Source of the DNA: Marsupella aquatica
Lineage: Eukaryota > Plantae > Marchantiophyta
Length of the DNA stretch: 64,000 bases
Assembly: GCA_973895155.1 (NCBI GenBank)
Contig: OZ316894.1
Location: 12,936,828 to 13,000,827, forward strand
Reading direction: 5' to 3'
The notes under the pieces were generated by a model, which was not told the origin of the DNA, did no database searches, and saw nothing but the letters and a program-made list of their open reading frames with translations. The translations under genes were made by a program, and so were the position numbers. This document shows, one piece after another, positions 22,431 to 60,573 of this stretch; positions within the stretch are counted from its first letter, which is position 1; each line of letters opens with the position of its first letter.

Positions 22431-24314
22431 CGCTCAAATTGGATGCATGTTGGGTCCACAGGTCGCACGGTGTCCTAAGGATAAGCAAAAAGGTGGAAAA
22501 GATCTTGAGAAACACGCTAGATTGCCTGCTTGAGATAGTAGACCAACAAGACAACTCTAAGCATCACAAAATTATCCACCTCATCCATAGCCAAAGCAAA
22601 GTAACTCATCCATTTACAAAATTGAGGACAACTTCTCCTCAATAATCAAATTAATATAACTATAGGTTTTTCTAAGTCAAAAGTAGGTCTCCATCAAGAC
22701 CCTCCTAGCAAGTAACACCAAGTAGTATGTATAAGATTGCATCTCAATCCCTCCAACAAGTCTATCAAAAACAAGGCTTCAAAATAGCCTATCTACTCTT
22801 GTCCTACACCATCATAACAACTTCAAGAACTTCAACTCTCAAGCAAGCAAAGCCTCAACCATGGAAAAAAGTTCTTCCCCTTCCATACTCCTTACTTATC
22901 ATCCTTCAATGTTTCCTTCTCCCAAACTGAGTGGAAAATTGGTCAGCGCTTCCGCACAAGAGTGAAGCCAATAATTTCCACCTTACCTTCAATGTTCTAG
23001 ATATTGGGTAAGGATTGCAACAAAGGTGCCCCTTCCAAGCTACACAGACCCCCAAGGCAAGACAAATCCACACCGGTAGGTGAATGAACAAGTCAATTAC
23101 CAAGGCAGATGCACTCAAGGTTAGGCAACACACCTCCAAGCACACATAAGCCCAATTCCTTCACATCTACTTCCCTAGGTCCTTCTTCCATCAAAGAAAC
23201 TACCTCCCAACTCTCAACTAGGCCCTTCAAACATTAGGCACCTAGAAGAGAGGAGCTATGGCTCTTTTACTCACAATCATGGCAATATCTCTCTTCCCCA
23301 CCTCCAAGCTCTCAACTCTGAGAAAGTGAGAATGAAGAATGATCCCCTCCTTCCCTCCAAGCTCTCCCTTAAGCCCCTGACCTGCCTCCCCCATCAGAAT
23401 TTGCAACTTCCTCCTCCAGCCCACTTCACACCAACCAAGCACTTGGTAGCAATTCACTAGCAGCCCAACAACTGCCCGCCACCTCTCCACCATAAACGAG
23501 GCACTAAATCCAAGTGAATGTTAAGCAAATAGGGACCAGACAACAGCAAAACCATGGACCAATCTCAATCCAACCTGAACTCGAGCTCCAACCACCCTCC
23601 AAGCTTCCCCAACACTTGTCAAGGCCTAACTTGCACTAGTCCAACTAGCTTTTGCCACCTCTATGGGGTATAGCCACCAAGACAGAAAACAGGAAAACAG
23701 GAATTCTGGTAGCAAATTTGTTTTTGCTGTTATCAGGAATATGTTGTTGTTACCTAGAAAAGTTAGTCATTGGAACAGGATAATCTGAAAAAAAGCAATA
23801 TGCATTGCGCTTCATTTACATTCTAGAGCTTAGAACCAACTAACATGGCAACAATTGTTGTCTGATGATAAGTGAGTCCGGAATCACCAACATACTTCTG
23901 GAAAATAGTGTCCCAAGAACCACAGACACACAACCATTAACCAGTGAATGCCATGAGAAAAAACATTGACATGGTAGGTCCCACCATAATTAACTTAATA
24001 TTATAGGCCAACAATAAGGCAGAAAACCACAAATGAAAACTTCGGACAACAATAAGAAAGACCACCAACGATGGGCTAGCGCCTGGCGCTAGCTAAAATG
24101 GAAACAACCAACACATTTAGAAATGACATTGGATGAATGCAGAATGTGGCAAACAAAAATTTAAAATATCATTTGTAGTGATAGGATTACAATGGAGTAA
24201 ATGATAATAAGGAAGACTTCCATCCCAGCGCCAGGCGCTAACACAAAATTATACCGTTGTAATACGACAAAAACTAATATAACCGTTTCGAGTATAGGAC
24301 AAATATATCATTCT

Positions 24315-27300
24315 CTATAAACCATGAGCATTCTCCCTTTCCAAGATCAGTCGGACTTCTCCAACTATGAGAATTGGTTGGCTGGTCAAAGTAGATTCCT
24401 CAATGTCTAGTTTGAAAACGGTCTGGAAAACCCAGTACAAATGTTTGCAAGGCATATATGGATATCTGTGAGAATGTCGACGATAGAAATCCTCACAAGA
24501 ACAAGTCAAGAAAATACAAATCTGCACAAAGTAACTATTCGGCGTCCTTAGATTCTCATGTGTTTGTACTTTGAATTGCTTCCCCCATGAGTTCCCAATA
24601 GAAACATCCCACTGTCCTTGGACGGACATGGTCTCTTTTCTTGCAGATTCAATCCTCTTCATGTGACCATGGGTCAAGGTCGATCGAGGAACCGTGTTCT
24701 TTCCATTCCGACTCCGGAGACGAACAGTGGGTTCCAGAAGATTGACTCTCTCTGGAAATAAGTTTACGTTGATTCGAAGATTGAAAAGTGATGGTGGAGG
24801 TAGAGGACCGTCTCTTCCTTGGGCTATAGGTATTCCCTGGTCAACAAGATACTTCATCTCAGCTTCCGAAACATTTGTTCCTTTTATAACAAGAAGAACA
24901 TCAGGAAAGGAGGGCAGGCTCACTACACCACGGCGGGGACGGCTCCGATAACATGTGTTGTTTGGGCAGAACCATATCATTTTGGCTATGGGTTCCCTCT
25001 TGAACATGCGTTGTCCTTTGACAACAATGCCGATGACACCGTTTGATGAGGGGAACCCAACTTTCTTCACTCTATTTTGACACTCATCTCTCTCGGAACT
25101 ACCACCAAATGACGCGTTGCACTGTGAACCGGCCCCAAATCTTGATGTCCGACGCAGATGCCCTAAACCCTCACTAAACCCTATGCCATGAACCTTGCAT
25201 GACTTCTGTTTCAAGAACTGGAGATTGGAGCGATGTCTGCTAAAGTACAATGGGAGCGCTTTGTGGGTATTGTGTTGAACATGATTGATGTCGACCATGC
25301 GGTGTACTGAAATCATCACGTTCTGCATCCCTCGAATCATCACTTCCTGAGAGATTGACAACGGACATGTCATCAGGTTTTTCTTCCGATACGGAAGCAA
25401 ACATTGTGTGGTGCAGATTTTTACGCTTGAGTGATCTGGTATTCAGTGATGTGATAAGGACTTTATCATGCCGGTGGGAGTCTTGTGGCGAGACAATCCC
25501 AGTTGCAAGTCCTTTCCTCTTGACAGACTTTGTTAGAACATCTCCGTTGAGAGGAACGCTTCTCTCCAAGTCAAACTCAGCTGCATTGGAGAGGAGCATG
25601 TTCATCGCATCCTCGAACAGCTTTGGGGAACCTGCCTGGTCAACTGAATGGAAAGCCAGTTCCCATATTGTAGGACCTCTTCCTCTACTCAATCCTTTCC
25701 GATATGCGGTATATGCTGCAACCTGAGATATAGCTCGAATCTGATCCATTCACATGCCTCGAAGAGCCCCACTTTTTTTCATTACCCATGCTTTCATTCC
25801 TGCGTGAACAGACTCTGATCCGGTATAGTTAGGAATCCTAGCGCCTTCTTCAACACTTTTGTCCTAGAACGACAAAGCATAAACACTAGTAAGAATCCGC
25901 AAAACATACTAGCGCCAGGCGCTAGGCAGAACATTTCGACAAAACCATCAATATTATTGTGTAATCACATGTTTATGAAAATAAACAGGTCAATATTTGA
26001 GAATCAATGACATTATTTGGATTCTTTGGATGGAATGTTGAGGAATGTCATCTGAAAAATGTACTTCTACAAAGGAATCTGATTTACATATTACTAGCGC
26101 CAGGCGCTATTACTCACCAAGCGAATAAAATTTCCCCACTGCCTCCAACGCACGACCCACCACGATATCCAACTTTGAAGCATTCGGAGCTTTCCAGGTA
26201 AGCAGTTACCCGACTGCCACCATAGGTCAATCTCTCTTGAAAGTTGGTAAGCCTCTACAAATGTTGGTGCGTTCCGTAATTTATCCCATAGCATTCGATG
26301 TTCCACCTGCTTCTCTTCCAACACTCCTTCAACAGAATGGCGATGAAAAGCTTGGTAAAAATCAAAAGCTTCCATCCTCTCCCGTTCAGGGTTTGGGTGC
26401 CCTCCGAAAAAAACATTATGGACTGCTAACCATCCGGCTTGGGCATTGTCTGCCATGAAGCCATGAATGGTTGGATTGTCTAACCCATTCTCTTTGGAAA
26501 CCTCAATCATTAATCTCCAAGCCTTCTCGAACGACGCCGTGTCCTCAGCTTTTAGCTTGCAAGTAAATATTGTACACAATGCGCGGTAATTGTGATCGTA
26601 AACGTGTGCGCTGAAAGTCACCCAATCCTTGGCCATTCGTTTCATGACATCGAAGCTTACCCAGGCACCTTCAAGCATCCCTCCAGGTTGCATTTGCCGC
26701 AAAAGATCCACCCCAGACCCATGGCCTTTGGAAGTCATCTTAAATATGTGAGGTCTGTCTTCTTGAGATCCTTGACCTGGAAGGATGTACCTCTGTAGAA
26801 AAGGCATGTTGATATTCTTTTGATACCGAACAAGAAAATCCAACTCTCCACGGCCTTTTTGGTCCTGCCTAACACTCCTGAAAAGAGATGCAAACTTCTG
26901 TGGAGTAGAAACTACCATTAGAGACTGGAAAATCTCTATCTCTTCGATATCTTCAATCTCACCCAGGCTCTCACACAAAGACTATACAAAAGATCCTGTC
27001 GCTACATTTTTAATCCCGGCAGGCGTCCAAGTCGGATTGCCTTCCAATTTCTTTTTTATGACATCTTCAACTACCTTTTCCGCACTCCGAGAAAATACCT
27101 TACGACAAGGATGATTGTGGGTACCCATATGAATCGCAAGGCGAGACATGTGACTACAGGTATCTGAGTCAAGCAGAACTTGAGGATACATATAAAACAG
27201 TCTTGCAGAGCATGTCTCTACACAAAAAGAGAGCTGCTAGCAATAATGACAAACAACTCCACCCTGCTCAATGAACGATCCAACACGGTGAGAGCCTCCA

Positions 27301-28102
27301 AGTTTTGGGGTACCAGCCCATGCCTTTGCATTCCTCCTCTTCTTTCGGCGGAAGTAGTCACAAGTTTTATTCATGCACTCAATAAATCCAGTACAAGTGA
27401 CTTTACCAAATTCCCAGTATTTCTTGGGCTGCACGTTTGCAGTGGTAGGAAATATTCTAGTCCAGATGTAGCAATCCTTGGTTCGGTCCATGTCCCGTAG
27501 ACGGGATCCTTTTGAAAGAATTCCCGACGATGGAGGCAACTCAAACACTACATTTCCATTGTACTTCGGAGGCAAACAAGGTACTTGTTCATGCCGGAAG
27601 TTTCCAGTCGCAATGAACCTCGAAAGTTTGTTGGACCCAGTTGACTTGAGCAGCGCGTCCATTGCACTTCTCCGGTATACAATATGGGATTTTGATGATG
27701 GCATCTCCTCTTTGACCAAGACCACGTCAGGCACCAAAGGCTCCACAAAGGGGATCCTTGGTGGCTCCTCATCATCACTATCGGAAAGAGTAACTACATC
27801 CACCGGATCCCTCTGAGGGGATTGCCGATCTCCTTGATTTGGTTCCCGAATGACAATGGAGTAGCGCAACCCAACATTAAGGTGCCAGAATCTCACCCCA
27901 TCATTGACATCAAAAAGTGCGACAGATTCGAAGTCATTGGCTTCCGTTCCCTCCTGAACGATTCCTCTATGTCATTCATGCGCAAATCAAACCTTCCACA
28001 AAGATAAAGCTCACTTATTTGCCTGTACCTTTCGGCCACAGACACTGGAATGGAAACAATGTCACCGGTGGACATACGGGTAACTACGATTGACTGAGAC
28101 AT
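24315..28102 (-). pseudogene. MULE-type DDE transposase with an N-terminal GCM-like Zn domain and a C-terminal SWIM finger; intron 26117-25864
   Basis: N-terminal C/H-rich region 'CTGFIECMNKTC...CHYC...CVETCSAR...IHMGTHNHP'; catalytic-like 'WVSFD', 'GFMAD' and 'SESVHA'; SWIM 'CSCEDF...PCKH'. Canonical GT-AG intron, in-frame TAGs and frameshifts. Confidence 0.8.
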
Positions 28103-28249
28103 CACAGAAGCCTCAGAAGCGAATGAGCGCAGGAAAATTATGAATCAAAATTCCACTAGCGAGGACTGTTATTGATCCTGACTAACAGTTCCCTAAAGCC
28201 ATTATAATAAGACAATCCTCTGACACCATAAATGTATTTTGTCGTTATA

Positions 28250-28790
28250 TCAACGTCATTTATGATCAACGTCATTTATGATCAACGTCATTTAGGAAGA
28301 ACCCTTTTGTTCTAGAAATATCAGATGATGAATAGCGCCAGGCGCTATTAAAAACAATCCAAAAGTAAAGGCCCATATAGAGTCAATTTATGTGTAGCGC
28401 CTGGTGCTATTAATAACAATCCAAAAGTTTAGGTTCCGTCTAACGTCAATTTATGTGTAGCGCCAGGCGCTAATAAAAGCAAATGATATAAAACAAATTC
28501 CTAAAGGAGACACTGGATGATTAGCGCCAAGTGCTAATATTGATATCATTCATATTATGAACGTATACAATGGTAAAAACTTGAAGTAGGAGCCTTCAAA
28601 AGGCTAAAAAAGCTTTGTTTTTTGCTAGCACCGGGCGCTAGTTTTCTTTTGTATCAGAAATATGAGAAAACCGGATTTTTGGGAAAGTAATGGCGTATTA
28701 ATGCCTCTTATGGCTCTATATTGAATTCCCAACTGACATAAAAATTGAAGATTTTAGGCCTTGGAAATTACTAGCGCCGGGCGCTACTAT
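28250..28790. promoter_or_regulatory. Divergent intergenic region with six TAGCGCC-N-GGCGCTA palindromes, a ~63-bp tandem unit and 3x TCAACGTCATTTATGA
   Basis: Palindromes start at 28333, 28395, 28458, 28522, 28626 and 28772; the 16-bp tandem lies at about 28250-28293. Confidence 0.8.
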
Positions 28791-29285
28791 TTGGTGAGTA
28801 AAAATGAATTCAATATATTCTTAGGTTTTCCTTTCAACGGTCATATTCAACGGTAACTATAGGTTGCGTGACCCTCAATCCATCGATCCTCTTTGGTGTT
28901 GTCGAATAAGATAACGACATGTGTCACAGATCCAGGCCAGGGGTTCAGTTTCCTTAGCGTATATGTCATGCTTTGTGCTCTAGATTCTTCTTATTTCCCA
29001 TGTTAAGTACAGTATGATCGAAGCTATTTGACGGGTTTTTGCCATTTGCGGTATGGAAAGAGCGCGGTGGTCGTCAGTACTTCCTTCGCCCTTGTGCGAG
29101 CAATGGACCTTGCCTTCTCCTCTCAATGATTTAGTGGAAACGGACACAAAGAGGTCATTCCCTCGCAAACATCTGAGTGCTCATTTTCAGGATCTGTGTA
29201 TAGTCGTCGAGTGACTCAATCCACTGCTTCGCGAGCTCTTGAATCACAACCCGTTGTATCATTCCCGAAGAGCAAGAGAGGGAAG

Positions 29286-30600
29286 ATGGATGATTCTGAT
29301 TCGTTTGCTATGGAGGACTTCGGAGAGACATCGCTTACTATTTGCAATGTGATCTCCAAACACATTATGTCATTTGGAAAAGATTTCCGAGGACATGACA
29401 AGGATCCGCCAAGGATTCCAATGTGCCGACTACTTCATATGGAAGTAGTGCGGATATTACAGAAGGGAAGTCCTTCGATAGAGAAGCTGAAAGACTCCTT
29501 TCAGAGCACAAGATACAATTCTAAGATCGGCATGCTATTTTACGTCCAACCAACAGATTCCAATGGAGAAGTCCACATCTGCACGCCTGAGATTCGTGCT
29601 TCCTAGGATGCAATTTGGGTCGTAGAGAACAAAAAGTTTGAGGCAGAATGTGCTGCAGACCCTGACTTTGCAATTTTGCAGGATAAGATGTTTTTTGTGT
29701 TTGATGAAACCATCAACTCTACACATGGTCCATCGTCACAAAGGAGAATCCGGATGATGTGAAATACCATCCAATGCACAATATTCAAGGGAGAAAAGGG
29801 GTCCTTGATCGAGATTGAGGCGGCGATGCACACTGTTAACCAGTAAGTGTCTCTTCCAACATATTTCTATTCTAATCTATGATCACACTACTGACTCCCT
29901 CTCTCGTTTTCAGGCTTGGGCAGGTAGTGGTCGAACCCTCTTGGATACTTGACGCATACCGTATCAACCAAATTCTCTCGAATGAACTCGATTACTACAA
30001 GTCTATCATTGACGTTGCAAACTTCAAGAAGTTTGGACAGATCATGCAGAAAACACGGAAGGGATCGTGGTATACCAAAAAAATGCCTCAAGAAGCGCTT
30101 CTATACATCTTGTGTGAGAATAAGATCAAGTCTTATTCTCGACAGTTTAAGATGGATCTGGAACATGCTGCCGCTCAGGGTACACCTTGGTCTCCCGGAG
30201 AGATTTCAAAAAGACATGCAGCGATGATGAAGGAGGCAACAAAGGATTGGGCGATAAAGGTGTCAAAAATCATTCCTCTATTAAGCCTCGCTTTTGAGGA
30301 TTTCATGCGGACATGTGCCAAGATGTACCCCCTCACAGAGAAGAATAAGAGAGAGAAGAAGTCGGATGCAGTTGTCTGTACAATGGATTGAGCAAGATTG
30401 TTTACCGTTGTCTCTGCCCTCGACCCCAAGCTAAGGAGTACCCTTCTGGTTGCCCATTGTACACCGGAGCCGAGAAAACAATTCTTCCATCCACAGAGCG
30501 TTAATGACAATCCAGTGAAGCAATGGTGCCATACCTGGCAAACTTGGAACACTGTGGAGGGAATCGCTATTGGTTTGCTACAAACCTCCCTATGCCAGGT
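29286..30600 (+). pseudogene. Accessory transposon gene with a ParB/Sulfiredoxin-like N-terminal domain; intron 29843-29913; 3'-truncated
   Basis: 'IPMCRLLHMEVVRIL...SIEKLKDSFQST...FYVQP...KMFFVFD(G)NH(Q)LYTW' follows the ParB-N pattern (PR...L.ELA.SI...G...DGxHR). The DGNHR motif is disrupted by a 1-nt loss and a CGA>CAA change. The intron splices in frame (…MHTVNQ|LGQVVVEP…). Confidence 0.65.
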
Positions 30601-30979
30601 CAGTGATATAGTGTGACACGGGCAATGTGTCACTTGACCAAACCGAGGTCGAAGATTAGGACTTATACGGTCATAAGGACCGTAGCCATAGCGTAGAATA
30701 GCACGTATAGCCGCCAAGTTGCCATTATGATTAGATTAGGAGTAGGTTAAGATAACCGAATAATTACGAGTTCAGGAAAGGGATTATTACGCACGACCGA
30801 GGTACGGTGGCGGCAGCGGAGTAAAAATCAGTTAGAAGAATCACGCTTGGACCGAGATGCCGACTTCAGCTCGTTATCAATGACCAAACGGCCTGACCTT
30901 CTCACGCTCGGGCTCGTCCTGGCACCCCCATAAGAGAGGAGCCGATGGCACTGCGGGCCATTCGCTCACGTTTACCTTT

Positions 30980-33900
30980 TTGGAATTCACGGACGCTGCC
31001 ATCCGCTCGCCTTTTTGATTGAATCCAGTCGATCTTTACGAGGAAATTATCGAGGGAGAAGAGCAGAATGTGGTGAGATTTAGTCAGGACGAGCGAGGCC
31101 TCCGCGAAAAAGGACCAGCCAGGTGGGAACGTGGACGCAACGAACCAGACTACGAGGTTAGTATGACCCTCACAGCCTTGGGATTTTGGACCTTGTTTGG
31201 CGAGGTAGGTGCTAAGTTCTCCGAGACTTACTGGTACTCTTGCCCCGAGAAAGCCGCTTATGAACGAAGGTACGTGAAGCTGGTAACCAAGGTAGCACTG
31301 GTTAATTGCGAAAGGACAGCCATCACCGGGGATTCTAGCTATAACGAGCTGCGAGACTACATCACCGAACTATATCTCAGCGAGGAAGGGCTTAGATCGG
31401 TAGCAGAGGCGATTCTTGAGGTTCCAGCTAAGTTCTTTAAGCTGAAGGGCAACCAGCGGCTTACTCGAGCGGAGTTCGACAAGATTCCGGGGTACCTAGA
31501 CCAGCAGATCGCAACCGAAAAGCGCCAAGAAGACATCAGCAGACAACGGGAAGCGGCGTGTAATCTCACGTTCCTTGGGGAAAGCTCCAACGCCTTCAAC
31601 TGGGATATGGCTACCCCAGCGCCTCAACCGATGACCACCGGAGTACCGCCGAACCAGTCCCAAGTCCGTCCAGTAATCAACGCGGAGTGTTCTTCGGGTT
31701 CCGAGCAAGCTAGTCCGCAACTCGAACAGCGTCCTCGTAAGCGGTCAAGGACTACGACGGCCCCCGAATCAACACGGACCGACGCCGCGCCTGCACCTGC
31801 CCCGACAAACCCCCCGACCAACCAGACCCGACGGCCCCCGGATAACCCAAAGTCCAACTTATTACAGGTAATCCGCATCCCCGAGGTAGTCTGGATCGCG
31901 ATCAAGAAACTCGAACATGCGGACTATCTCAAGGAGCATCAGTTGGAGCGGTTCGCCCACTTACTATGGAGGCCATGCGCCACCGGGCCGAAGGAGATTT
32001 GTGAGTTCATCTCCAATTTCGACATTGATGCGTCGACCACCAAGGTTGCGGGGCAGACCTTATCACTCATGGAGCATCGGTTAACGCAAATTTTCGGCCT
32101 ACCAACCGGGCCGGTGCCGGTGGAAATCCAAATTCGGGATAAGGAGTATACGCCGCGGCACTTCAAACCCGAGGGTAAGACGGACAACGGATAGAAGCAG
32201 GGGGCGTGCACCAACTTAACCTGTATGGAGCGGCTTAACTTCATACGGACTACCCTACACATGATTGAGCCACGATCCGAGATTTCCCTCTGCACGATCG
32301 TGCAGGTGGAACAGTACAAACGACAAAACTGGGCCCAATTCTTCTACCGAAGATTCTCGGGGGAGCTGAAGCGGGCTCAGGGTGGTATGGCTATTGGAGG
32401 GAAGACTTACTTGGGAAGTCATATCGCCATTATCCTTGCCTGGTACAAGGCACGGCGGGAGGCCAGAGGAAAGAATACGGCCACCTCAGCCCCGGGTAAT
32501 GTCACCCCCGCCCTAGAGGAGGCAACCCCGACTACGCGGACTACTGTCCCTCGGACAAACCCCGAGCCGGAAGCCCCGACTAATACTCCGCAACCGCCCC
32601 CTGTGGAAATTCCACCGCCTCCTTCCGTTGAGCCTCCGCTACCTACAGTACAACCACCCCCAATCCCTCCACCACCTGAAGAAACCTTCCCCTCCCCAGC
32701 GCTGACTACGGAGGAGCTCATTGCCCCTGCCGAGGAACCACCAGTACCCGAGAGGATGGAGGACTACCAAGTAGCCCCGGGGACCATGGCCTACGACCTG
32801 GTCCAGAATTTTAGCCAGACTATCTCTCTGAAAAAAGGGTCCTTGCTCCAACTCTTCCCCAAAGATGCTGAGCGCCAACTCTCCACACATTTCCCCGTAC
32901 TCCATGGCTCTATTTTTAGCATAGTTGGAGGAAGTAGAAGTTTGGATAGCGCCAATTAGAAGAAGCGGTGGCTTTGGAAAGAACCAAGAAGGACGAGGTC
33001 ATCCGTCGGCTCAGGGCAAGGGAAGCCGAAATCAAAGACCTGAGGGCGGCCAAGAAAGCCCAAGATGAGCTGCAGATTAAGCGGCATGAGCTAAATATCA
33101 TTCAGGGCCAATTGGATACCGCACAGTCTGATAATCGGATTATCGAGAATAAATTGACTCGAACCCAAGAAGAGTTGGCCGATGCGATCAAGGAGCGGGA
33201 GAAGTGGAAGCGAGAGCTGAGGGGTGCAGAGGAGGCCCACATAACAGCCAACAACCGGGCCAGGGCAGAGACCCAGAGAAGGGAAAGGGCATTGAAGGGG
33301 GAGCTCGAGGTTATCCGCGGAGCCCTTGAGAAGAAGGAGGCCGAGTTGGGGAAATCCTATCAAGGGATTATTGCGCTGTAGTAGGAGCTTGCATCCCTGA
33401 CGGCCAGCTTCAAGGCCGACCTACGTGAGAAGGACAATATGCTCGATCAGACTTACGCCAAGATGAACCAGATGGAGTCTGTCATCATTGCAGAGCTCGA
33501 CAAGGAGTTAAGAGCGACCCGGGAGGAGAGAGCTGCGTTTAAACAGGAATTGGAGGAAGCCCAAAAGGAGCTGGAGGAGGCGCGCAAGGACCTGGACGAA
33601 GTGCAGGAAGAGTTGGAGGAAAGCACGCGGAAGCTAGAGAACTTACAACGACGAGCCGACAACCAAACGGAGCGGCTGAAGAAACAAGCCGCAGTATTTA
33701 AGTGCTTGGCTTCATCAGGGCCAACTCAAATTGAGGCCACTAAGTTACCAGGAGTGGTACTGGCCAAAGGACAAGCCGCGCCATTTGCACTAGTGCCGGA
33801 AGTAAGTGGGAAGGGGAAGGGGCCAGCTGCCGAACCAGAAAAGAAGAAGCGGAAACCTTCAGGGTCAGGGAGTAATACGGCTCCACAGGCCATGGTGACC

Positions 33901-34218
33901 AAGGAGGTAAACCCAGCACCGACCTCAGGCAGGGTTACGGCAGAGGATCCAACTACCCTAGAAGAAGGGGATGACAAAGCCGAGGCCAGGATACTCGGTA
34001 ATGAAGCCAAGGTACCCAATCCGCCACTTGAGTGTGCAAGGGAGGCCGTAGCCGAGGCTGATGTTGAAGCCGATGCCGTTGCCAGGGGTGGACCCAGTCA
34101 AGCCGATGGAGAGTTGACTCAGTCAAGGGCAGGTAATTTGTCAGAGAACGAACCTATAGCAGTGGCTGAGGTGGAAGCGTTGGGGGCGTCCACTGAGGAA
34201 CAGCCACCGCTGCCATGA
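30980..34218 (+). pseudogene. Retrotransposon-associated extra ORF: plant-mobile-domain/transposase_32-like core, Pro-rich linker and long coiled coil
   Basis: 'EICEFISNFD...KVAGQTLSL...LTQIFGLP' core, followed by Pro-rich and heptad-rich segments; several stop codons. Confidence 0.55.
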
Positions 34219-35103
34219 CGGTGGTGGAGGGCGGACGTGGAGGGAGGAGGCGTGAGTGGGCAGGGCGGGCTCAGATCTCTAAGTTTAGGATTAGGATCAG
34301 GACCAGGAGGCGGCCCTGACACTTAGCTTAGTGGGATTGCGGTTCCACTGGTAAGAGCAACACTTGTACTCCTGCCTCGCTATACATAGGTAGATTCAGT
34401 TAGGTAGATTAAGCTTACACTGCAAGGAATTAGGCGGATCCACTACCAGGATAAGTACCTGGGCAGCGGGGAGCTCAGGGCCTCTTCTTTAGCAAGTTTT
34501 TAGTTGCACCAGCTGGGCTGGGATCAAGTAGTAAGAGAAGCTCTCGGTTAGTCATACAGTGACCCTTGTGTATATTCATTTTTCCTCATGCCTAAGAGCT
34601 GAATAGAGTTGGCCTCACGGCTTAGTTCGCAGAGCTTGTGTATGAGATGTACTATTTGTATGGCAAGTGCATGGTATGACTCAGTCAGAAGGAGTCATTT
34701 TGCTATTTGTGTGTCGCATTAACTTGTGTGAAGAGTGCCCACATCAACTAATAGAGGAAGGAAAGTAAGCAAGAGAGTGAGAGTTGGATGTGTCAAGCTG
34801 AGAGAGGTCTTAGCGGCTTAACCAAGCCTATTGGGGATCATTCCGGCGGCGGAATCCAAATATACCTAACAAGACGGAGGGGAAGACAAGGGAAGGCCTA
34901 GATTAGGCCGGCTACGTATCTCATGACCCGATGAAGGATCTGTCCAGTATATGTGTGTAAAATGTTAATAGTAGTAGTAGAAGGAGGTTAGCAGCGTCCA
35001 ATGCCACTAAGCCGCGGAAACGGCCTCGCCAAGCGCAAAACCCGCGGGAATCGGCTTGTGAAGGGGGGTTTCTGGGGTTTAGGGAGCCATGGGATGCACC
35101 ACA

Positions 35104-36968
35104 AAACACAACCAAAAAATCTCACCAAACTAACTCGCTTTGCAGTACAAGTACTTCGCTCAATGTATGGTCTGAAACAGAGCGAATTGACATGGTATAA
35201 GAGATTCAAATCAGAAATGCTAGCAATGGTATTCACGAATGCAGACATAACACCATGCATATTCATTAAGAAAGAAGGACGAGAACTCATAATCATTGCC
35301 ATATACGTGGATGATCTGAACTTATTCAGGACCAGCCGAATCATGCTGGAAACCATTAAATTACTGAAAAGGGCATTCAAGGTGAGAGACTTGGGGCAGA
35401 CTACATCTACCTCGGATTGCAATTTGAACACTTGCCCACTGGAATTTTCCTGCGTCAATCTACATACACAAGAAAGATATTGAAACAATTTAACATGCAT
35501 CAGGCAAAACCGTTCCAATCTCCAATGGACATTCACTCCTTGGATAAGGATAAGGACATCTTCCGGAAGAGGAACAAGAACGAGCCACTACTTGGCTCAG
35601 AAAAACCATACCTATCTGCTATAGGTGTCCTAATGTTTCTCGCCAACCAGACCAGACCTGATCTGGCATTCTGGGTGAACTTGCTGGCCCGCCACAGTGC
35701 AGCACCAACAATACGCCACTAGAATGGCATCAAGCAAATTTTCTGCTACCTAAGAGGTACCATAGACCTGGGATTATTCTACCCGAAGAACGCTACTTAC
35801 TTACTAACTGGATATGCTGATGCAGGATATGTGTCCGATCCTCAAGACGCTAAATCACAAACAGGGTACGTGTTCTTGATGGGGCAAACGACGATCTCAT
35901 GGAGGAGCAACAAGCAAACGCTTACCACGACCTCATCAAACCACTCTGAAATAATTGCGTTATACAAAGTCAGCCGCGAGTGCATCTGGATACGAACGTG
36001 ATCAACCACATACATTATAACACAAGAACGCCAAGACTGACTGCACCCCTACATGTATACGAAGACAACCGACCATGCATCGATCAAATTCAAACAAGTT
36101 TCATCAAGGGTGACAGGACAAAGCACATTGCCCCTAAGTTCTTCTTTACTAAGGAGCAGCAGAGCAAAAGCATTGAAGTGCACTAGATACCAAGCAAATC
36201 AAACTCTGCAGATATGTTTACGAAAGCCCTACCACCCACTCTCCACAAAAAGCATGCACATTTGATAGGGCTAAGAAACTTATCTCAATTGCAGATAAAC
36301 TAACCAAACTTGGGATCGTAGTTGATACGCTCACACCATTCAGGGGGAGATCCGCTCGACCTCCGCCTGATCGTAGACAAAAATTAACAGCTTTGCAGCC
36401 GAAAGTGCGTTCCAAACCAAGAACAACGAGACGACCCCACATAAGAACAATTCAAGACCATCAAAATGGCCGAACGTCCAATAACCCAAGAATGACACTC
36501 GGCAAAAGACATCACCACTACGACACCACAATATCGACAAACCACGTACTTAGGGCAACGACAATACACGACAAAACATCAAAGGACACCAATGTCCACT
36601 AGAATCAACGTTACACACTAGCATATAAGGTTATGTTAGCCCAATACAACAATACTTTTAAGTTAAATTACAAAGTAAATCATGGAGGGAATGGTAATAC
36701 TCTTTCCCCCCACAAGAAAGGAGGGGGGGTTTTAATGAGATTACAGTCCCCCATAATGATTAAAGTAGGCTTTAATTGGTTGCAACATTTCCCCAGACCA
36801 TGTTACACCCAAGGGGAAGTGTTGTAACCTAAGTTAACTCTAGCTTACCTAGGACCAAGCCTACTATGGTTAGGTTAAGACCAACTGCCCAACTGCCTTA
36901 CCTACCTAAGGGGCTATATGTATATTATGAGGAATGAATGGAAGCATGATTGTTGATGAGCTACAACA
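35104..36968 (+). mobile_element. 5'-truncated Bianca-like copia: RT-RNase H remnant, PPT and 3' LTR (36820-36968)
   Basis: 'SMYGLKQS', 'IYVDD', 'PYLSAIG', 'YADAGY', 'KHIAPKFFF'. The PPT CAAGGGGAAG is identical to that of the 13-kb element; the LTR runs TGTTGT...TACAACA. Confidence 0.88.
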
Positions 36969-37060
36969 CAATGCAATTACTACGGCTCGATTCATGTATG
37001 AGCAGATCTTCACCAGGTATGGCGCACCCCTAGAGTTAGTTAGTGATCATAGAGGAACCC
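36969..37060 (+). pseudogene. Short Ty3/gypsy integrase-core fragment (target of the copia insertion)
   Basis: Translates as NAITTARFMYEQIFTRYGAPLELVSD. Confidence 0.7.
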
Positions 37061-37333
37061 TGTAATGCCTAGCTAGGAATCACTAGGCCAGTTAAAGTGG
37101 TAAAACCAGGAGTGTACCCTGAAAACACATTAGTATAGTAACAAAACAAGGAAAATATAAACAATTAAGGGTGACTATGGAACCCAAGCCGAGGCCGGTG
37201 TCATGAGGTTTTCTTCCTAAGGGAGAAATCCTCATGTTTAGCTTGTGCAAAAGAAGAGAAAGAAAAAGATTAAAAACATGCAACTTTTGCAAAAAAAATT
37301 TGTGGTATTTCAAAGTGTAGTCAAGTCTGGTTT

Positions 37334-38170
37334 TTGAGTAAAGATGAGTGTTTAGGTGTAGGGAGTCAAAAGCTGAAAAATAAAGAAAAGTTCATGTTGC
37401 GTGTAGGAGAGTTGGTTGCTGATGAAGAGATCCTTGGTTTATATGATGAGTATGGCAATGAGCCCTCTTTTGTACATATTTTGAGAGATATTGCTAAAGG
37501 TGAGAGTGAGATAGAGGTAGGGGGAGAATTCTATGGAGAGATGATTCATTTGTTGGGGCCTGAAATGAGTATCCACACAAAGTACAAAATAGTGGAACAA
37601 AAGGTTCGTCCCGCATCTGTTCCATTACCACCTAAGGCTAGGGAGATGATTGAGAGTGCAAGTAGAGAGCCTTGCTTAAGACCTTCAGAAGATATTGGGC
37701 ATGTGTTTACAAAAGAGACATTGGCAAGCTTGAAGATAGGAGGTGATGGGCTATTGACTGATGTGGAGATTTCAGCTTTTAGAAACATGGTAAGGGTGCA
37801 TGGAAAGGCATTTTCTTTTGTGTTGGAGGAGATAGGATGTGTCAACCCAAGTGATGTGGCTCCTATGATTATCTTTTCTGTTCCTCATATCCCTTGGGAT
37901 CTCAAGCCTTTACCAGTACCTAGGGCTATGCTTCCAAAGGTTATTGATTTGTTGAAAGAGAAGATTAAGGCTAGAATTCTTGAAAGGTCAGATGCTCCAT
38001 ACTCAAATCGGTGGTTTATTGTTAAGAAAAAGAATGGTAAGATGAGATTCATTCAAGATATGCAACCACCTAACAAGGTGACCATTAGGAATGTAGGGAC
38101 TGGATCTGTTGTTGATGAGTTTGCTAAAGAATTTGCAGGAAGTGCTATCTATTCCATTGATGACTTGTTG
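37334..38170 (+). pseudogene. Ty3/gypsy RT N-terminal fragment, paralogous to 42897-44273
   Basis: Shares 'TKYK.V..KVRPA', 'ERSDAPYSNRWF.V.KKNG..RFIQDMQPPNKVTIRNVG'; ends abruptly. Confidence 0.9.
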
Positions 38171-38194
38171 GCTACCTCCTATTCACTTAGATCT

Positions 38195-38520
38195 TACTCA
38201 AGTTAAAATGCTAGTTAAACCGATAAGGTGGCAGTTTCCGGTTTGCAAGCAAATGAAGGGGAGACAATTGTTAGGTGGCATGTGCAAGAGATAGGGCTCA
38301 AGCTTTGGAGTGCAAGACAAGCTTGGGTAGGTGAAGAGGAGGGTTGTGGCGTGGCACTAATGGCCATCGCTTCTTACTAAAGTTAAAAGAGTTGTTAAAC
38401 CGGTAAGATGGTAGTTTCCGGTTTGCAAGCAAATGAAGGGGAGACAAGTGTTGGTGTTGGCATCGCTAAGGGTGAAGCTCAAGCTTGAGTATGACAACTC
38501 AAGCTAGGAGATAAGGTTGA
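38195..38520. repeat. ~180-bp imperfect tandem duplication
   Basis: 'agttaaaa…gttaaaccg…agtttccggtttgcaagcaaatgaaggggagacaa…gctcaagctt' occurs twice. Confidence 0.7.
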
Positions 38521-38597
38521 GCCTTGCCTTGGTGGTGGGCTACTATTTGTGGAGGTTAACCAGGTGGTTGAGTTCATAGAGGGAGGTGTTTACAAAA

Positions 38598-39870
38598 GGC
38601 AGGAAAACAGGAAACAGGCATTCATAACAGAAACCGGTAACAGGGAAAAAGACTGGTAACAGGAAAATTCTAGTCTCAAACTTTTGAAATTTTTTCTGGT
38701 AGCACCCGACGCTGGTAAAAATAGTGCCAAAGGTGAGGTTTTTTTAAAAGACACCAAAAAAACAAACAGGAGTAAATATAAGAAACTCGTAGCGGTAGGA
38801 ACTCTCCATGATTATTGCTAGCACCGGGCGCTATGAAGAGTCTATAATTTGTACCAATTGCACTTTCGGAGGATATTTAATGAAGGGGGTTATGAAATGT
38901 TCAATCTCGGAATGCTATTTAAGTCAATTATAATTAACCAAAACCTTTCAGTAGCGCCTGGCGCTACTACAATAATCCCAATAGACAACCATCGTCTATT
39001 CTAGCCTCCTCCCGATCAGGGTCTTTCCAGAAGACATCTAGCTACAAAGATCCATGACTGTTCCCGCTAGTTCACCTAATACCACAAAATCAGACGGAAA
39101 ACTAAACATTTATGCAACCACAGCCCAGAAAGAATCCACACCCAATAACCCTTAGAAAATTGGGAAGCGCCCGACGCTAGCCAATATTGCACCTGAGAAC
39201 ACGTCTTCACAACTCAAACTTCAAGAATCTGAAATAAAAATATAATAGTGACAGTATGTTTGAGGAGTGCCTGGTGCTAGTAAAACTTGAAAGGGCTTAA
39301 AATCAGCCAATTCATCGAAATGGTTACACACTGAAACATTAAATGACGTATTTGAAGAAAACCCCATTGCTACCTATAAACTATCAGATGTTTCTGATGC
39401 GGAGCCTTCAGATCTGTCTGTGGACTCGGCTTCGTCATCAATGTACTTGCTTTGGGAAACATCATCTATATAAGGGTTCCTCATGAACTTCCTGTCTGCT
39501 CCCCTCTAAAGACGTAGACCTTTTGTTTCCCAACAAAGCGTTCTAATTTTCTCAACCCTCCTAGCGGCATTTTCAGCGTATGAGGGCAAAACAAACGGCT
39601 TCTCAGGAGTGACAATTACATTCCTAGCTAGTCTCCTCCGGAGTTGGAAACGCTTCCTCAAATTCCATTCTGACCTGATCCAGTACAACGGAAAAAAATA
39701 TGAGTTTAGGAGATAAGAGAGCAAGAACCCAGAATTGTCAACAACACTTGAAAGGATAAAGAAGCTTACTGGAAGAACATTACTCGTCTGAGTCTTCGCT
39801 CTTCTCCGAAGAATCTTCCTCCTAGGTTTTCTCTGTGTCATCTCCGACATTGTCGTGACAAATTGTTTCT
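38598..39870 (-). mobile_element. Terminal fragment of a related MULE-like element, probably the opposite end, with five palindromes and the last exons of a gene
   Basis: Starts GGCAGGAAAACAGGAAACAGGCATTC. Palindromes start at 38700, 38819, 38952, 39165 and 39265. A minus-strand spliced coding tail ends '...SKYIDDEAESTDRSEGSASETSDSL*'. Confidence 0.6.
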
Positions 39871-50241: not shown

Positions 50242-50375
50242 ATCCAGAAGCACAAGCCCCAAACCCCTCTAGCCAGGAAAAATCTTCCGTCCCAAAAGAC
50301 ACACCGGGTCAATCTAATACAGTCAAATACCCACAATTCTGGTGTAAAGAATACTCATGCCAATTTTATTCGTGT

Positions 50376-52024
50376 TCAATAAAGAACTTCATCATGTACA
50401 TCATTTTTGGTCAAGCTTGCATGACCCTCCTCGAAATCTGGAAGCAAAACCTTAATACTTCTAGGCGATGTTGCTCTTGAGAATGCTACGTACAACTGGT
50501 CGTGACTAAATACAGGTTTTGAAAGTTGCAACCCTACATGTTCTAAAGTTTGACCTTGAGCCTTGTTGATGGTCATTGCATATGCCACTCGGATGGGAAA
50601 TTGGACCCTACGTAATACAAAAGGAAGTGATTCATCAGACGTCAACGGAATGCGTGGGATGAACGTAATAGTTCCCGCATATTTTCTTGCAAGGACTGGT
50701 GCCTCAATGACACAACGATTCATGGATCTCACAATGAGCCTTGTACCATTACATAATCCAAGCGAGTGATCTATATTCCTTAGCAAGATTATAGGGCATC
50801 CAACCTTCAATACCAGCTTGTGAGGTGGTAAACCACTCGGTGTTAGCGTATTCAAGAACTCCGTAGGATAAAAATTCTCCCCTTCCAGTTGGTCCGGATG
50901 ATCGACGCTTAAAAACTCCTTTGACTCCCTAGGAAGTCCTTCTAGAATGCAATTGTTGATTTTGAGCGCCTCATCGTTGGTTGGCGCCAGGATAGTCCTC
51001 TTGCTTAAGAACTTATCATCCACGTTTAAAAGAGATGGGTACGTAGATTTCACTAATCAAAGATTCCACACATCCTCCCTCCACCACCATAGACTCCGGA
51101 CATGTAATAAGGTTATTTGAAGGTCCCTGCTTTGGGAGTTTGTCATCGCCCAATGCAAGAAGCCACTCTGCAAATGTAATCTTGATTGCCAAACTCAGGA
51201 GACGCTGAAGTTCCTCTTGCCCGCATATTCTCTGTTAGTTTGTACGTTTGTATACTACTCCATATGTGGGATTTCTTCAAACACGACCCCACAATCTCCG
51301 GACGACTGGCCCTTGCCTTCACAGGAAGTACTTGACAAAAATCTTTTGCAAACACAACCACAACTCCTCCAAAAACTTGGTCACAATCTCGAATGTCACA
51401 TAGCATTCTATCCAACGCCTCAACTCCATGCCGATGAATCATGGGTGCTTCATCCCATAAAACAAAGGTGGCCCTCTGTAACAATCCACCAAGGTTAGAT
51501 TGTTTTTGAATAGCACACGTTGATATTGAGATCGGTTTCAACAAAAGCTTGAATCATGAATAAGCAATGCGCCCTCCATCTGACAAAAGACCTGCAATAC
51601 CCAAGGAAGCCACAGCCAATGCCACATCCCCATCTGCACGCACTCTCCTCAATAGAATATTCTCAAGAAATGTTTTTCCCGTCCCCCCTGGCCCATCAAC
51701 AAAAAATGTTCCTCCTTCTCGAGCCCTCACCGCTGCAAGTATTGCAGTGTAGGCTCCCCTTTGGCTGTCATTTAATAATGGCTCTTGTTCTGCAAGTTGT
51801 TGAAGAAGTGCATCAATCGGGTAGCATGTCTCCTCCCGTATCAAGCAATTCCTATTTTTTGGTTTTTCAAAAAATTGCATACTTGGAACCGGAAGACCAA
51901 ACCCCAACAATGTTTTACCAATACTTTTCAAAGCCTCATTGGTCAAATATAGGGCAAAGCCCTGTTGTTGCTCCTCAGTGGGATCCAAAAAAACCCATTG
52001 AACGTAGACAATAGCAACAATCAT
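50376..52024 (-). pseudogene. Helitron PIF1 helicase remnant (copy 2)
   Basis: Duplicate of 20782-22430. Confidence 0.9.
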
Positions 52025-53908
52025 CGCTCAAATTGGATGCATGTTGGGTCCACAGGTCGCACGGTGTCCTAAGGATAAGCAAAAAGGTGGAAAAGATCTT
52101 GAGAAACACGCTAGATTGCCTGCTTGAGATAGTAGACCAACAAGACAACTCTAAGCATCACAAAATTATCCACCTCATCCATAGCCAAAGCAAAGTAACT
52201 CATCCATTTACAAAATTGAGGACAACTTCTCCTCAATAATCAAATTAATATAACTATAGGTTTTTCTAAGTCAAAAGTAGGTCTCCATCAAGACCCTCCT
52301 AGCAAGTAACACCAAGTAGTATGTATAAGATTGCATCTCAATCCCTCCAACAAGTCTATCAAAAACAAGGCTTCAAAATAGCCTATCTACTCTTGTCCTA
52401 CACCATCATAACAACTTCAAGAACTTCAACTCTCAAGCAAGCAAAGCCTCAACCATGGAAAAAAGTTCTTCCCCTTCCATACTCCTTACTTATCATCCTT
52501 CAATGTTTCCTTCTCCCAAACTGAGTGGAAAATTGGTCAGCGCTTCCGCACAAGAGTGAAGCCAATAATTTCCACCTTACCTTCAATGTTCTAGATATTG
52601 GGTAAGGATTGCAACAAAGGTGCCCCTTCCAAGCTACACAGACCCCCAAGGCAAGACAAATCCACACCGGTAGGTGAATGAACAAGTCAATTACCAAGGC
52701 AGATGCACTCAAGGTTAGGCAACACACCTCCAAGCACACATAAGCCCAATTCCTTCACATCTACTTCCCTAGGTCCTTCTTCCATCAAAGAAACTACCTC
52801 CCAACTCTCAACTAGGCCCTTCAAACATTAGGCACCTAGAAGAGAGGAGCTATGGCTCTTTTACTCACAATCATGGCAATATCTCTCTTCCCCACCTCCA
52901 AGCTCTCAACTCTGAGAAAGTGAGAATGAAGAATGATCCCCTCCTTCCCTCCAAGCTCTCCCTTAAGCCCCTGACCTGCCTCCCCCATCAGAATTTGCAA
53001 CTTCCTCCTCCAGCCCACTTCACACCAACCAAGCACTTGGTAGCAATTCACTAGCAGCCCAACAACTGCCCGCCACCTCTCCACCATAAACGAGGCACTA
53101 AATCCAAGTGAATGTTAAGCAAATAGGGACCAGACAACAGCAAAACCATGGACCAATCTCAATCCAACCTGAACTCGAGCTCCAACCACCCTCCAAGCTT
53201 CCCCAACACTTGTCAAGGCCTAACTTGCACTAGTCCAACTAGCTTTTGCCACCTCTATGGGGTATAGCCACCAAGACAGAAAACAGGAAAACAGGAATTC
53301 TGGTAGCAAATTTGTTTTTGCTGTTATCAGGAATATGTTGTTGTTACCTAGAAAAGTTAGTCATTGGAACAGGATAATCTGAAAAAAAGCAATATGCATT
53401 GCGCTTCATTTACATTCTAGAGCTTAGAACCAACTAACATGGCAACAATTGTTGTCTGATGATAAGTGAGTCCGGAATCACCAACATACTTCTGGAAAAT
53501 AGTGTCCCAAGAACCACAGACACACAACCATTAACCAGTGAATGCCATGAGAAAAAACATTGACATGGTAGGTCCCACCATAATTAACTTAATATTATAG
53601 GCCAACAATAAGGCAGAAAACCACAAATGAAAACTTCGGACAACAATAAGAAAGACCACCAACGATGGGCTAGCGCCTGGCGCTAGCTAAAATGGAAACA
53701 ACCAACACATTTAGAAATGACATTGGATGAATGCAGAATGTGGCAAACAAAAATTTAAAATATCATTTGTAGTGATAGGATTACAATGGAGTAAATGATA
53801 ATAAGGAAGACTTCCATCCCAGCGCCAGGCGCTAACACAAAATTATACCGTTGTAATACGACAAAAACTAATATAACCGTTTCGAGTATAGGACAAATAT
53901 ATCATTCT

Positions 53909-56900: not shown

Positions 56901-57696
56901 GGGGTACCAGCCCATGCCTTTGCATTCCTCCTCTTCTTTCGGCGGAAGTAGTCACAAGTTTTATTCATGCACTCAATAAATCCAGTACAAGTGACTTTAC
57001 CAAATTCCCAGTATTTCTTGGGCTGCACGTTTGCAGTGGTAGGAAATATTCTAGTCCAGATGTAGCAATCCTTGGTTCGGTCCATGTCCCGTAGACGGGA
57101 TCCTTTTGAAAGAATTCCCGACGATGGAGGCAACTCAAACACTACATTTCCATTGTACTTCGGAGGCAAACAAGGTACTTGTTCATGCCGGAAGTTTCCA
57201 GTCGCAATGAACCTCGAAAGTTTGTTGGACCCAGTTGACTTGAGCAGCGCGTCCATTGCACTTCTCCGGTATACAATATGGGATTTTGATGATGGCATCT
57301 CCTCTTTGACCAAGACCACGTCAGGCACCAAAGGCTCCACAAAGGGGATCCTTGGTGGCTCCTCATCATCACTATCGGAAAGAGTAACTACATCCACCGG
57401 ATCCCTCTGAGGGGATTGCCGATCTCCTTGATTTGGTTCCCGAATGATAATGGAGTAGCGCAACCCAACATTAAGGTGCCAGAATCTCACCCCATCATTG
57501 ACATCAAAAAGTGCGACAGATTCGAAGTCATTGGCTTCCGTTCCCTCCTGAACGATTCCTCTATGTCATTCATGCGCAAATCAAACCTTCCACAAAGATA
57601 AAGCTCACTTATTTGCCTGTACCTTTCGGCCACAGACACTGGAATGGAAACAATGTCACCGGTGGACATACGGGTAACTACGATTGACTGAGACAT
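53909..57696 (-). pseudogene. GCM/DDE/SWIM MULE-type transposase (copy 2)
   Basis: Duplicate of 24315-28102 with the same disablements. Confidence 0.8.
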
Positions 57697-60194: not shown

Positions 60195-60573
60195 TAGTGA
60201 TATAGTGTGACACGGGCAACGTGTCACTTGACCAAACCGAGGTCGAAGATTAGGACTTATACGGTCATAAGGACCGTAGCCATAGCGTAGAATAGCACGT
60301 ATAGCCGCCAAGTTGCCATTATGATTAGATTAGGAGTAGGTTAAGATAACCGAATAATTACGAGTTCAGGAAAGGGATTATTACGCACGACCGAGGTACG
60401 GTGGCGGCAGCGGAGTAAAAATCAGTTAGAAGAATCACGCTTGGACCGAGATGCCGACTTCAGCTTGTTATCAATGACCAAACGGCCTGACCTTCTCACG
60501 CTCGGGCTCGTCCTGGCACCCCCATAAGAGAGGAGCCGATGGCACTGCGGGCCATTCGCTCACGGTTACCTTT

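What the first reader, a model, noticed from the sequence alone, without database searches (positions are those of the whole stretch)
23681..30600. Two-gene Mutator-like transposon carrying a ParB/Srx-like protein and its own array of 15-bp palindromes (candidate parB/parS-like or anti-silencing system)
Seen: a DDE transposase (minus strand) and a spliced second gene (plus strand) diverge from a shared spacer. The second gene has a ParB-N-like pattern ending in a decayed 'FD(G)NH(R)L' at 29703-29716. Ten copies of TAGCGCC-N-GGCGCTA sit only in non-coding parts of the element. Established: bacterial ParB proteins are CTP-dependent clamps that load at 16-bp palindromic parS sites, and Arabidopsis VANDAL MULEs encode VANC proteins that bind short motifs amplified in the element's non-coding DNA and counter silencing. 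Inference: this is a plant transposon with a dedicated ParB-fold factor and cognate binding sites, used for anti-silencing, end synapsis or chromatin modification. The gene is cut off at about 30600, so any C-terminal DNA-binding or methyltransferase domain cannot be seen. Both local copies are pseudogenised.
Basis: partly seen in the sequence, partly recalled or inferred. Interest (0 to 1): 0.88.

Follow-up and report, generated by a model that had tools for sequence, protein, structure and literature searches.

The report
Mutator transposon with ParB-fold accessory gene
This is a broken, rearranged copy of a cut-and-paste transposon, likely from a liverwort-type plant, carrying a second gene with a predicted ParB-like fold and 15 copies of its own mirror-image DNA word, which that gene's protein likely binds to mark or switch on the element, a pairing already proposed for algal transposons.

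Summary
Observation confirmed and extended. Ten palindromes (6 exact) lie in 23681-30600, all non-coding. Five more lie in the element's missing right end at 38583-~39840, which is inverted: both ends share a perfect 8-bp target duplication and ~40-bp imperfect TIRs. The transposase is Mutator-like (DDE, GCM-like zinc domain, SWIM). Gene 2's first exon has 18 relatives, 7 with intact DGNHRL. A relative's model matches ParB/Srx-fold proteins in the top 8 of 48,161 chains, each weakly (Z 4.0-6.2). Other genomic copies carry the base that opens the motif's frame. A relative with a 60% identical transposase has the same half-site, without a spacer, in the same intron. The 'second local copy' is a 99.76% block duplication, not a second insertion. 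Which protein binds, which nucleotide it uses and whether it counters silencing are untested; the gene's middle is missing. The concept is in print for red and brown algal transposons (ParB-like accessory gene; inverted-repeat arrays in red algae). This scan noted similar elements in other genomes. New here: a land-plant Mutator version with dispersed sites and a family-specific spacer.

The parts
23658..23665 (+). target-site duplication, left copy (CCTCTATG)
   Evidence: identical to the reverse complement of 38575-38582; empty-site contigs join the two flanks
23666..23705 (+). left terminus, short imperfect TIR with CAGGAAAACAGG repeats
   Evidence: aligns to 38583-38622 with score 32; 0 of 2000 shuffles reach it; motif count
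24077..24240 (.). 2 palindromes, left subterminal region
24315..25863 (-). transposase 3' exon(s): candidate third catalytic residue in ESVH (25804-25815), SWIM-like finger (24438-24503); frameshifted near 25772
   Evidence: SWIM E=0.0039, below Pfam cut-off; ESVH also in L001; 2-base insertion in other copies
25864..26117 (-). transposase intron with 2 exact palindromes (25910, 26095)
   Evidence: splice sites; the homologous intron of L001 holds 3 zero-spacer versions
26118..28075 (-). transposase first exon (5' limit approximate): GCM-like zinc domain and RNase H core (SFD 26646-26663, ADN 26445-26459); two in-frame stops (27239, 26984)
   Evidence: 9 relatives at 45-64% identity; relative's model matches ISCth4 transposase and the GCM domain; stops
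28333..28786 (.). 6 palindromes in the divergent spacer; first four spaced 62, 63, 64 bp (local tandem unit)
29103..29842 (+). gene 2 exon 1 (start inferred): Ser-rich leader and ParB/Srx-fold domain with broken DGNHR motif (29700-29719); stops at ~29127 and 29604, two frameshifts (~29705, ~29769)
29843..29913 (+). gene 2 intron; position conserved
   Evidence: GTAAGT...TTCAG; 8 of 8 full exon-1 relatives end at the same place, one residue after the conserved Asn
29914..30612 (+). gene 2 exon 2, about 230 codons with no known domain; one stop at 30389; cut by an inserted repeat
   Evidence: other copies read C at 30389 and continue in frame past 30612
30613..38574 (.). inserted repeats (begins TG, LTR-like; Copia- and Gypsy-type pieces recognised by eye) plus inverted host flank; not part of the element
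38575..38582 (-). target-site duplication, right copy (inverted)
38583..38622 (-). right terminus (inverted), imperfect TIR
   Evidence: contigs begin at 38583 with unlike upstream letters (X3: 8 contigs, agreement 0.44)
38700..39279 (.). 5 palindromes, right subterminal region
   Evidence: other copies read consensus letters at 38709, 39268, 39275 in 4 of 4 runs
39370..39840 (-). spliced 3' coding remnant (acidic stretch, basic ~85 aa, acidic tail with YIDDEAE); likely the end of gene 2 or of a third gene
   Evidence: no Pfam match; assignment to gene 2 is inference from orientation
50242..62535 (+). 99.76% duplicate of 20648-32941, including flanks, left TSD and the truncating insertion

Best explanation
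This is one dead, rearranged insertion of a high-copy Mutator-like transposon whose second gene encodes a predicted ParB/Srx-fold protein that likely binds, as a dimer, the element's own 15-bp palindromes and would thereby mark or activate the element. Shown: boundaries, target duplication, both genes and all 15 sites inside one insertion, non-coding placement, an intact motif in relatives, and a conserved half-site with a changed spacer in a related family. Predicted: the fold. Inferred: the accessory protein is the binder, with a DNA-reading part in exon 2 or the missing middle. Its nucleotide pocket (ATP or CTP, unknown) would gate loading or spreading from the sites. The likely outcome is self-specific relief from silencing or a self-written DNA mark, centred on the divergent promoter, which holds 6 of the 15 sites.
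For: Top 8 of 48,161 chains are KorB, PadC, two sulfiredoxins, SerK, pNOB8 ParB-N, Atu1540 and SbnI (Z 6.2-4.0; that the last two share the fold is recalled). The top 9 Foldseek rows are Noc, KorB and ParB. Nearest Atlas clusters are DUF3723, ParB_N and DUF6551. DGNHRL is in 7 of 18 relatives and DGNHCL in 1. 15 of 15 sites are non-coding, p about 1e-7, and none lies outside element DNA in the window at <=3 mismatches. The same half-site, with spacer 0, occurs three times in L001's homologous intron although the intron is otherwise diverged. A palindrome with a 0-1 base centre suits a dimeric protein rather than a hairpin (inference). Precedents: PAG3 with inverted-repeat arrays, Sola1 ParB-methyltransferase on the strand opposite its transposase, VANC21 motifs in non-coding DNA.
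Against: Each fold match is individually weak (no Foldseek E<=0.001; Z under 8, which the tool calls common). The fold is of a relative (P0015, 38% identical), not of the window protein. No HTH, methyltransferase or oxygenase domain was found in the parts present. The one distant locus (L001, 2,078 bp) links the palindrome to the transposase and is too short to show gene 2. The transposase has its own zinc DNA-binding domains, and AtMu1 transposase alone activates its copies. A phage ParB that partners a DNA-modifying enzyme lacks an obvious DNA-binding domain and works without its NTP residues. 7 of 14 site mismatches are CpG transitions, so these sites were probably methylated in this copy.
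Confidence: 0.5

Rival explanations
1. The transposase (GCM-like and SWIM zinc domains) binds the palindromes to activate or synapse the element, and gene 2 has another job such as a partner enzyme or activator.
For: GCM-domain match (Foldseek E 8.3e-3; Z 6.1). The palindrome follows the transposase intron in L001. The TIRs are short and imperfect, so internal sites could compensate. AtMu1 transposase alone hypomethylates and activates its copies.
Against: AtMu1 binding peaks are at the TIRs, whereas these sites begin 117-411 bp inside the ends and are densest in the spacer. The termini have their own repeated CAGGAAAACAGG motif, a more natural transposase site.
Confidence: 0.22
2. Gene 2 is a structural transposition helper: an NTP-gated clamp loaded at the palindromes that bridges or brings together the two ends, with no role in chromatin marks.
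For: 7 of 15 sites are subterminal, at both ends. The best fold match is KorB, a clamp. The GxxR-type motif and a final Asn at the Box III-like position are conserved (the box assignment is my reading).
Against: 8 of 15 sites are in the intron and spacer. The DGxHR form is nearer DGQHR/DndB, SerK and Srx (1 of 12 members hits TIGR03187, E 0.002) than canonical ParB. No dimerisation or HTH domain was identified.
Confidence: 0.15
3. The palindromes are host transcription-factor sites or neutral by-products of local duplication, and gene 2 is unrelated cargo.
For: Three to four spacer sites sit in a ~63-bp tandem unit. One L001 site lies inside a 60-bp perfect inverted repeat, so local copying occurs.
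Against: Most sites have unrelated flanks. The half-site survives between families at 60% protein identity. Other copies carry consensus letters where this copy has decayed (28405, 38709, 39268, 39275 in 4 of 4 runs). Gene-2 relatives are 29-61% identical yet keep the motif.
Confidence: 0.13

Closest known systems
PAG3 of red-algal Plavaka (EnSpm) elements, with homologs in Chondrus Mutator and in Zisupton elements (Petroll et al., bioRxiv 10.1101/2025.02.11.637652; sections 8 and 21 read)
   Same: DNA transposon accessory gene with an N-terminal ParB-like domain; inverted repeats in the element proposed as its binding sites; self-modification proposed and untested.
   Different: There: a 17-19 kb element with three accessory genes, tandem arrays next to PAG3 and a 2OG-oxygenase domain. 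Here: a Mutator of likely liverwort-type plants, 15 dispersed sites in every main non-coding region, effector domain unseen. Sequence homology to PAG3 was not tested.
Sola1-1_Ec32 accessory gene of Ectocarpus (PMC12477816; passages read)
   Same: Gene on the strand opposite the transposase with a ParB-like domain; the authors propose a class of accessory proteins that bind and modify their own element.
   Different: Sola1 transposase; N4/N6 methyltransferase domain identified (1104 aa); no palindromes mentioned in the passages seen. No methyltransferase domain is visible here.
VANDAL21/VANC21 of Arabidopsis (PMC5735166; abstract and section 8 read)
   Same: Mutator-like element with an accessory gene; motifs in non-coding DNA that spread by tandem repeat formation and differ between families.
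   Different: VANC binds a 9-base motif arrayed in one orientation, with demonstrated demethylation. Here the site is a 15-bp palindrome, the protein has a predicted ParB fold and no function is shown.
Bacterial ParB/parS, KorB, Noc and the wider ParB-NTPase fold (PMC12704722; passages and section 7 read)
   Same: Predicted N-terminal fold, GxxR-type motif, palindromic candidate sites of similar length.
   Different: No ParA or segregation context; HTH and dimerisation domain not found; DGNHR rather than the canonical motif; nucleotide unknown.
DUF3723 (PF12520) proteins of fungi, including Starship cargo (search listing only)
   Same: Nearest Atlas cluster for relative P0027 (score 0.93; 31% of members carry the family).
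   Different: No direct Pfam hit for 18 of 18 relatives; 141 of 256 shared features, so at most a distant relative.

Membership tests
Mutator/MULE superfamily | DDE transposase of IS256/Mutator type | tested here: met
   SFD, ADN and ESVH motifs; best Foldseek hits are ISCth4 transposase, E 7e-4 (its IS256/Mutator membership is recalled); no Pfam MULE hit
Mutator/MULE superfamily | 8-11 bp target-site duplication | tested here: met
   perfect 8-mer at 23658-23665 and, inverted, 38575-38582
Mutator/MULE superfamily | terminal inverted repeats starting with G | tested here: met
   about 40 bp, imperfect, no similarity further in; short for a classical long-TIR MULE
Mutator/MULE superfamily | WRKY/GCM-type N-terminal zinc domain and C-terminal SWIM | tested here: met
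   1odh GCM match; SWIM E 0.0039, under the curated cut-off
ParB/Srx fold superfamily | ParB-N fold | tested here: met
   model of relative P0015, pLDDT 79.6, pTM 0.75; top 8 VIA rows and top 9 Foldseek rows are this fold, each weak; Atlas
ParB/Srx fold superfamily | GxxR (Box II) motif | tested here: met
   DGNHRL in 7 of 18 relatives; other genomic copies open the frame and one loose end reads N-H-R-L; broken in the window copy
canonical ParB/parS (CTP clamp) | central HTH and C-terminal dimerisation domain | tested here: inconclusive
   no hit for exon 2; middle of the gene missing; exon 2 not folded
canonical ParB/parS (CTP clamp) | CTP binding, clamp closure, spreading from the site | not testable with these tools
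   nucleotide preference cannot be predicted from sequence or co-folding (PMC12704722)
canonical ParB/parS (CTP clamp) | partner ParA gene | tested here: inconclusive
   none in the parts present; the element's middle is missing
PAG3/Sola1-type ParB accessory genes | ParB-like domain in an accessory gene of a DNA transposon | tested here: met
PAG3/Sola1-type ParB accessory genes | fused DNA-modifying domain (2OG oxygenase or N4/N6 methyltransferase) | tested here: inconclusive
   none in exon 2 or the 3' remnant; middle absent from the window
PAG3/Sola1-type ParB accessory genes | sequence homology to PAG3 or the Sola1 protein | not tested
VANDAL/VANC anti-silencing systems | short motif enriched in the element's non-coding DNA | tested here: met
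   15 of 15 sites non-coding
VANDAL/VANC anti-silencing systems | VANC-type protein | tested here: inconclusive
   exon 1 is ParB-fold; no Pfam hit of any kind for gene-2 pieces; no direct comparison with VANC
VANDAL/VANC anti-silencing systems | sequence-specific demethylation and activation | not testable with these tools
   needs expression and methylome data

The most novel reading that the evidence does not exclude
Land-plant Mutator elements run a true parB/parS-type switch in chromatin. A nucleotide-gated clamp loads at dispersed palindromes and spreads over the whole element, shielding it from silencing or writing a self mark. Families keep the same half-site but change the spacer (1 base here, 0 in L001) as a self/non-self code.
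Probability: 0.2. Interest if true: 0.85.

Novelty: new variant of a known kind. Interest (0 to 1): 0.52.

Why it matters
[quoted passage not shown] This family extends the design to Mutator elements of, likely, liverwort-type land plants (one relative is from Calypogeia fissa), where genetic tools and methylomes exist for model species. It supplies a clean candidate site with a natural spacer variant, so binder, nucleotide and effect can be tested directly. If true, it would be an anti-silencing or self-marking system built from a bacterial segregation fold, unrelated to VANC, and a possible tool for targeting chromatin changes.

Tried and rejected
No whole genome is held, so copy number and full-length copies could not be examined. 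Family scans gave no significant hit for gene-2 or transposase pieces: Pfam, PHROGs, PADLOC (best E 0.04). PDB sequence searches found nothing. Word-based searches with gene-2 pieces found nothing: 0 of 839 candidates and 0 of 6; these are weak negatives. Viral contigs held no transposase relative (0 of 99 stretches), no P0015 relative and no double palindrome; phages had no P0015 match. The metagenome scan gave 1 locus from 131 stretches, too short to test gene-2 linkage. The gene's continuation is not in the window. The transposase 3' region did not align with the end of L001. No RNA holder was listed, which is no evidence on expression. The Atlas gave no answer for exon 2 or the transposase. 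No listed contig spans the element, and depths were not used to rank parts. Rejected: two independent local insertions (block duplication); RNA hairpins as the sites' role (0-1 base centre; inference); a link to Marchantia DN4MT1 (its preprint has no ParB mention). Iyer et al. 2011 was not held.
Full report
Observation. TAGCGCCNGGCGCTA occurs 13 times exactly in the window (shuffle mean 0.00) and 23 times at up to 2 mismatches (mean 0.08). Ten more are the same sites in a 12,294-bp duplicate block (20648-32941 = 50242-62535, 99.76%, no gaps) that includes the flanks and the truncating insertion, so they add no independent evidence. At up to 3 mismatches there are 15 distinct sites: 2 left subterminal, 2 in the transposase intron, 6 in the spacer and 5 at 38700-39279. 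None lies in about 5.4 kb of coding DNA (p about 1e-7 if placed at random), and none lies outside element DNA.

Boundaries. Contigs of four DNA-type or untyped runs from two studies (one search listed 6 runs; 4 were laid) begin at 38583 with unlike upstream letters, marking a terminus. Three contigs of run X1 follow the flank to 38582 and continue with letters whose first 17 match the reverse complement of the flank left of 23658: the empty site. The 8-mer at 23658-23665 equals the reverse complement of 38575-38582. The first 40 bases inside each end align better than all 2000 shuffles. So 23666 and 38583 are the two ends of one insertion, whose right part was later inverted and whose middle is lost or lies outside the window. 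Two independent insertions at the same base of a host repeat cannot be strictly excluded. The left flank further out encodes a PIF1 helicase, which suggests a Helitron.

Transposase. The main exon found 9 relatives among 668 candidates (45-64% identity), all unnamed. They conserve SFD/SD, ADN and a D-x-F-H motif. ESVH follows the intron in the window and in L001. The model of P0003 (pLDDT 72.4, pTM 0.39) matches ISCth4 transposase (E 7e-4) and the GCM domain (E 8e-3), and integrase cores at Z 6-7. A SWIM-like finger ends the gene (E 0.0039, under cut-off). With the 8-bp duplication this supports Mutator, although Pfam gave no MULE hit.

Gene 2. The stop-free part of exon 1 found 18 proteins at E<=0.001 among 1.84 billion. 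Seven carry DGNHRL, one DGNHCL, one ends in DSNH, one reads other letters there, and eight stop or leave the frame earlier. Eight full exon-1 relatives are 29-61% identical, and all end at the window's intron donor. One is annotated from the liverwort Calypogeia fissa; the window's own lineage is inferred from that alone. I aligned 12 of the 18, dropping six short or frame-shifted ones, and folded P0015 (pLDDT 79.6, pTM 0.75). The top 8 of 48,161 chains were KorB (Z 6.2, rmsd 3.0, 95 aligned), PadC (5.5), Arabidopsis sulfiredoxin (5.4), SerK (5.3), pNOB8 ParB-N (4.9), Atu1540 (4.6), SbnI (4.5) and human sulfiredoxin (4.0), ahead of unrelated helices. Foldseek's top 9 rows were Noc, KorB and ParB, best E 0.038. 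The Atlas placed P0027 near DUF3723, ParB_N and DUF6551 clusters, and 1 of 12 members hit the DGQHR model at E 0.002. Each match is weak; their agreement makes the fold likely. Other genomic copies have an extra G after 29705 in contigs of 4 of 4 runs (a minority by depth in three), a loose end reading N-H-R-L-Y-A-W, C at the 30389 stop in 4 of 4 runs, and an in-frame continuation past 30612 (most difference rows were not shown). Exon 2 and the 3' remnant match nothing, so no DNA-binding or effector domain is shown.

The site across families. L001 (60% identical transposase; 1 locus from 131 stretches) has three copies of the same half-site with no spacer in the homologous intron, which is otherwise diverged. 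In the window 7 of 14 site mismatches are CpG transitions, and other copies carry the consensus letter at four such positions. The family consensus therefore has the sites, and this dead copy was probably methylated. L001 is too short to show gene 2, so cross-species linkage of gene 2 and palindrome remains untested.

Mechanism. Most likely (0.5) the gene-2 protein binds the palindromes as a dimer and marks or activates its own element; binder, nucleotide and effect are all inferred. Rivals: the transposase is the binder (0.22), gene 2 is an end-bridging clamp (0.15), or the sites are host or neutral features (0.13). CTP should not be assumed: the fold also binds ATP and GTP and specificity is unpredictable (PMC12704722, passages and section 7). 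A phage ParB activates a DNA-modifying enzyme without needing its NTP residues (PMC13229309, abstract and passages). AtMu1 transposase alone activates its copies and binds at the TIRs (bioRxiv 10.64898/2026.08.24.746577, abstract and passages).

Prior art. Petroll et al. (bioRxiv 10.1101/2025.02.11.637652; abstract, sections 8 and 21; supplements not seen) describe PAG3, a ParB-like plus 2OG-oxygenase accessory gene with adjacent inverted-repeat arrays, and draw the parS and VANDAL comparison themselves. PMC12477816 (passages) describes a ParB-like plus N4/N6-methyltransferase gene opposite a Sola1 transposase and calls such proteins a possible new class, citing Iyer 2011 (not held). VANC: PMC5735166 (abstract and section 8). 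Also seen as passages, with nothing on this family: PMC4738411, PMC6431247, bioRxiv 10.1101/2021.02.12.428880. The listed rows of searches showed no land-plant Mutator case; only top rows were seen and subscription papers are missing. Four unchecked notes of this scan report similar elements in other genomes; none matched by sequence or place.

Verdict. Interest 0.52.

Noticed in passing
window 20785-22433 (-): Fragmented PIF1 helicase gene (Pfam E 7e-19 to 9e-33), probably a Helitron, about 1.2 kb left of the element's end.
   Followed up: partly
transposase relative P0003, residues 16-100: The N-terminus is predicted to be ubiquitin-like (Mpe1 Z 8.5, DWNN Z 7.6), unusual for a Mutator transposase as far as I recall.
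   Followed up: partly
L001 1172-1231: One palindrome is the centre of a 60-bp perfect inverted repeat (29-bp arms), suggesting sites can extend by local copying.
   Followed up: no
window 29843-29913: Other copies have a longer version of the gene-2 intron; one contig insert there contains a degenerate palindrome (tables 5 and 5c).
   Followed up: no
palindrome centre: The centre is CCNGG here and CCGG in L001, and each arm holds GCGC: all cytosine-methylation contexts, relevant if gene 2 carries a methyltransferase.
   Followed up: no
window 39425-39478 (-): Acidic tail with NPYIDD and YIDDEAE; it resembles acidic motifs of chromatin-factor binders (recalled, untested).
   Followed up: no
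window 20648-32941 and 50242-62535: 12.3-kb direct duplicate with 29 substitutions; 16 of them fall in the last 2.3 kb (from 30601), so the block may be composite or a haplotype duplicate.
   Followed up: partly
window 13700-18376 (+): Copia-type retroelement with gag, integrase and RT in two long frames split by one stop.
   Followed up: no
window 40968-44960 and 48889-50382 (+); 37274-38206: Gypsy-type pieces (RT E 6e-11; integrase E 2e-19); 37575-38169 is 69% like 43213-43807.
   Followed up: no
window 6998-7493; 47292-47513; 28245-28294: Tandem arrays: 18-19-bp unit x about 25; 67-bp unit x 3; 16-bp unit x 3 inside the element's spacer.
   Followed up: no
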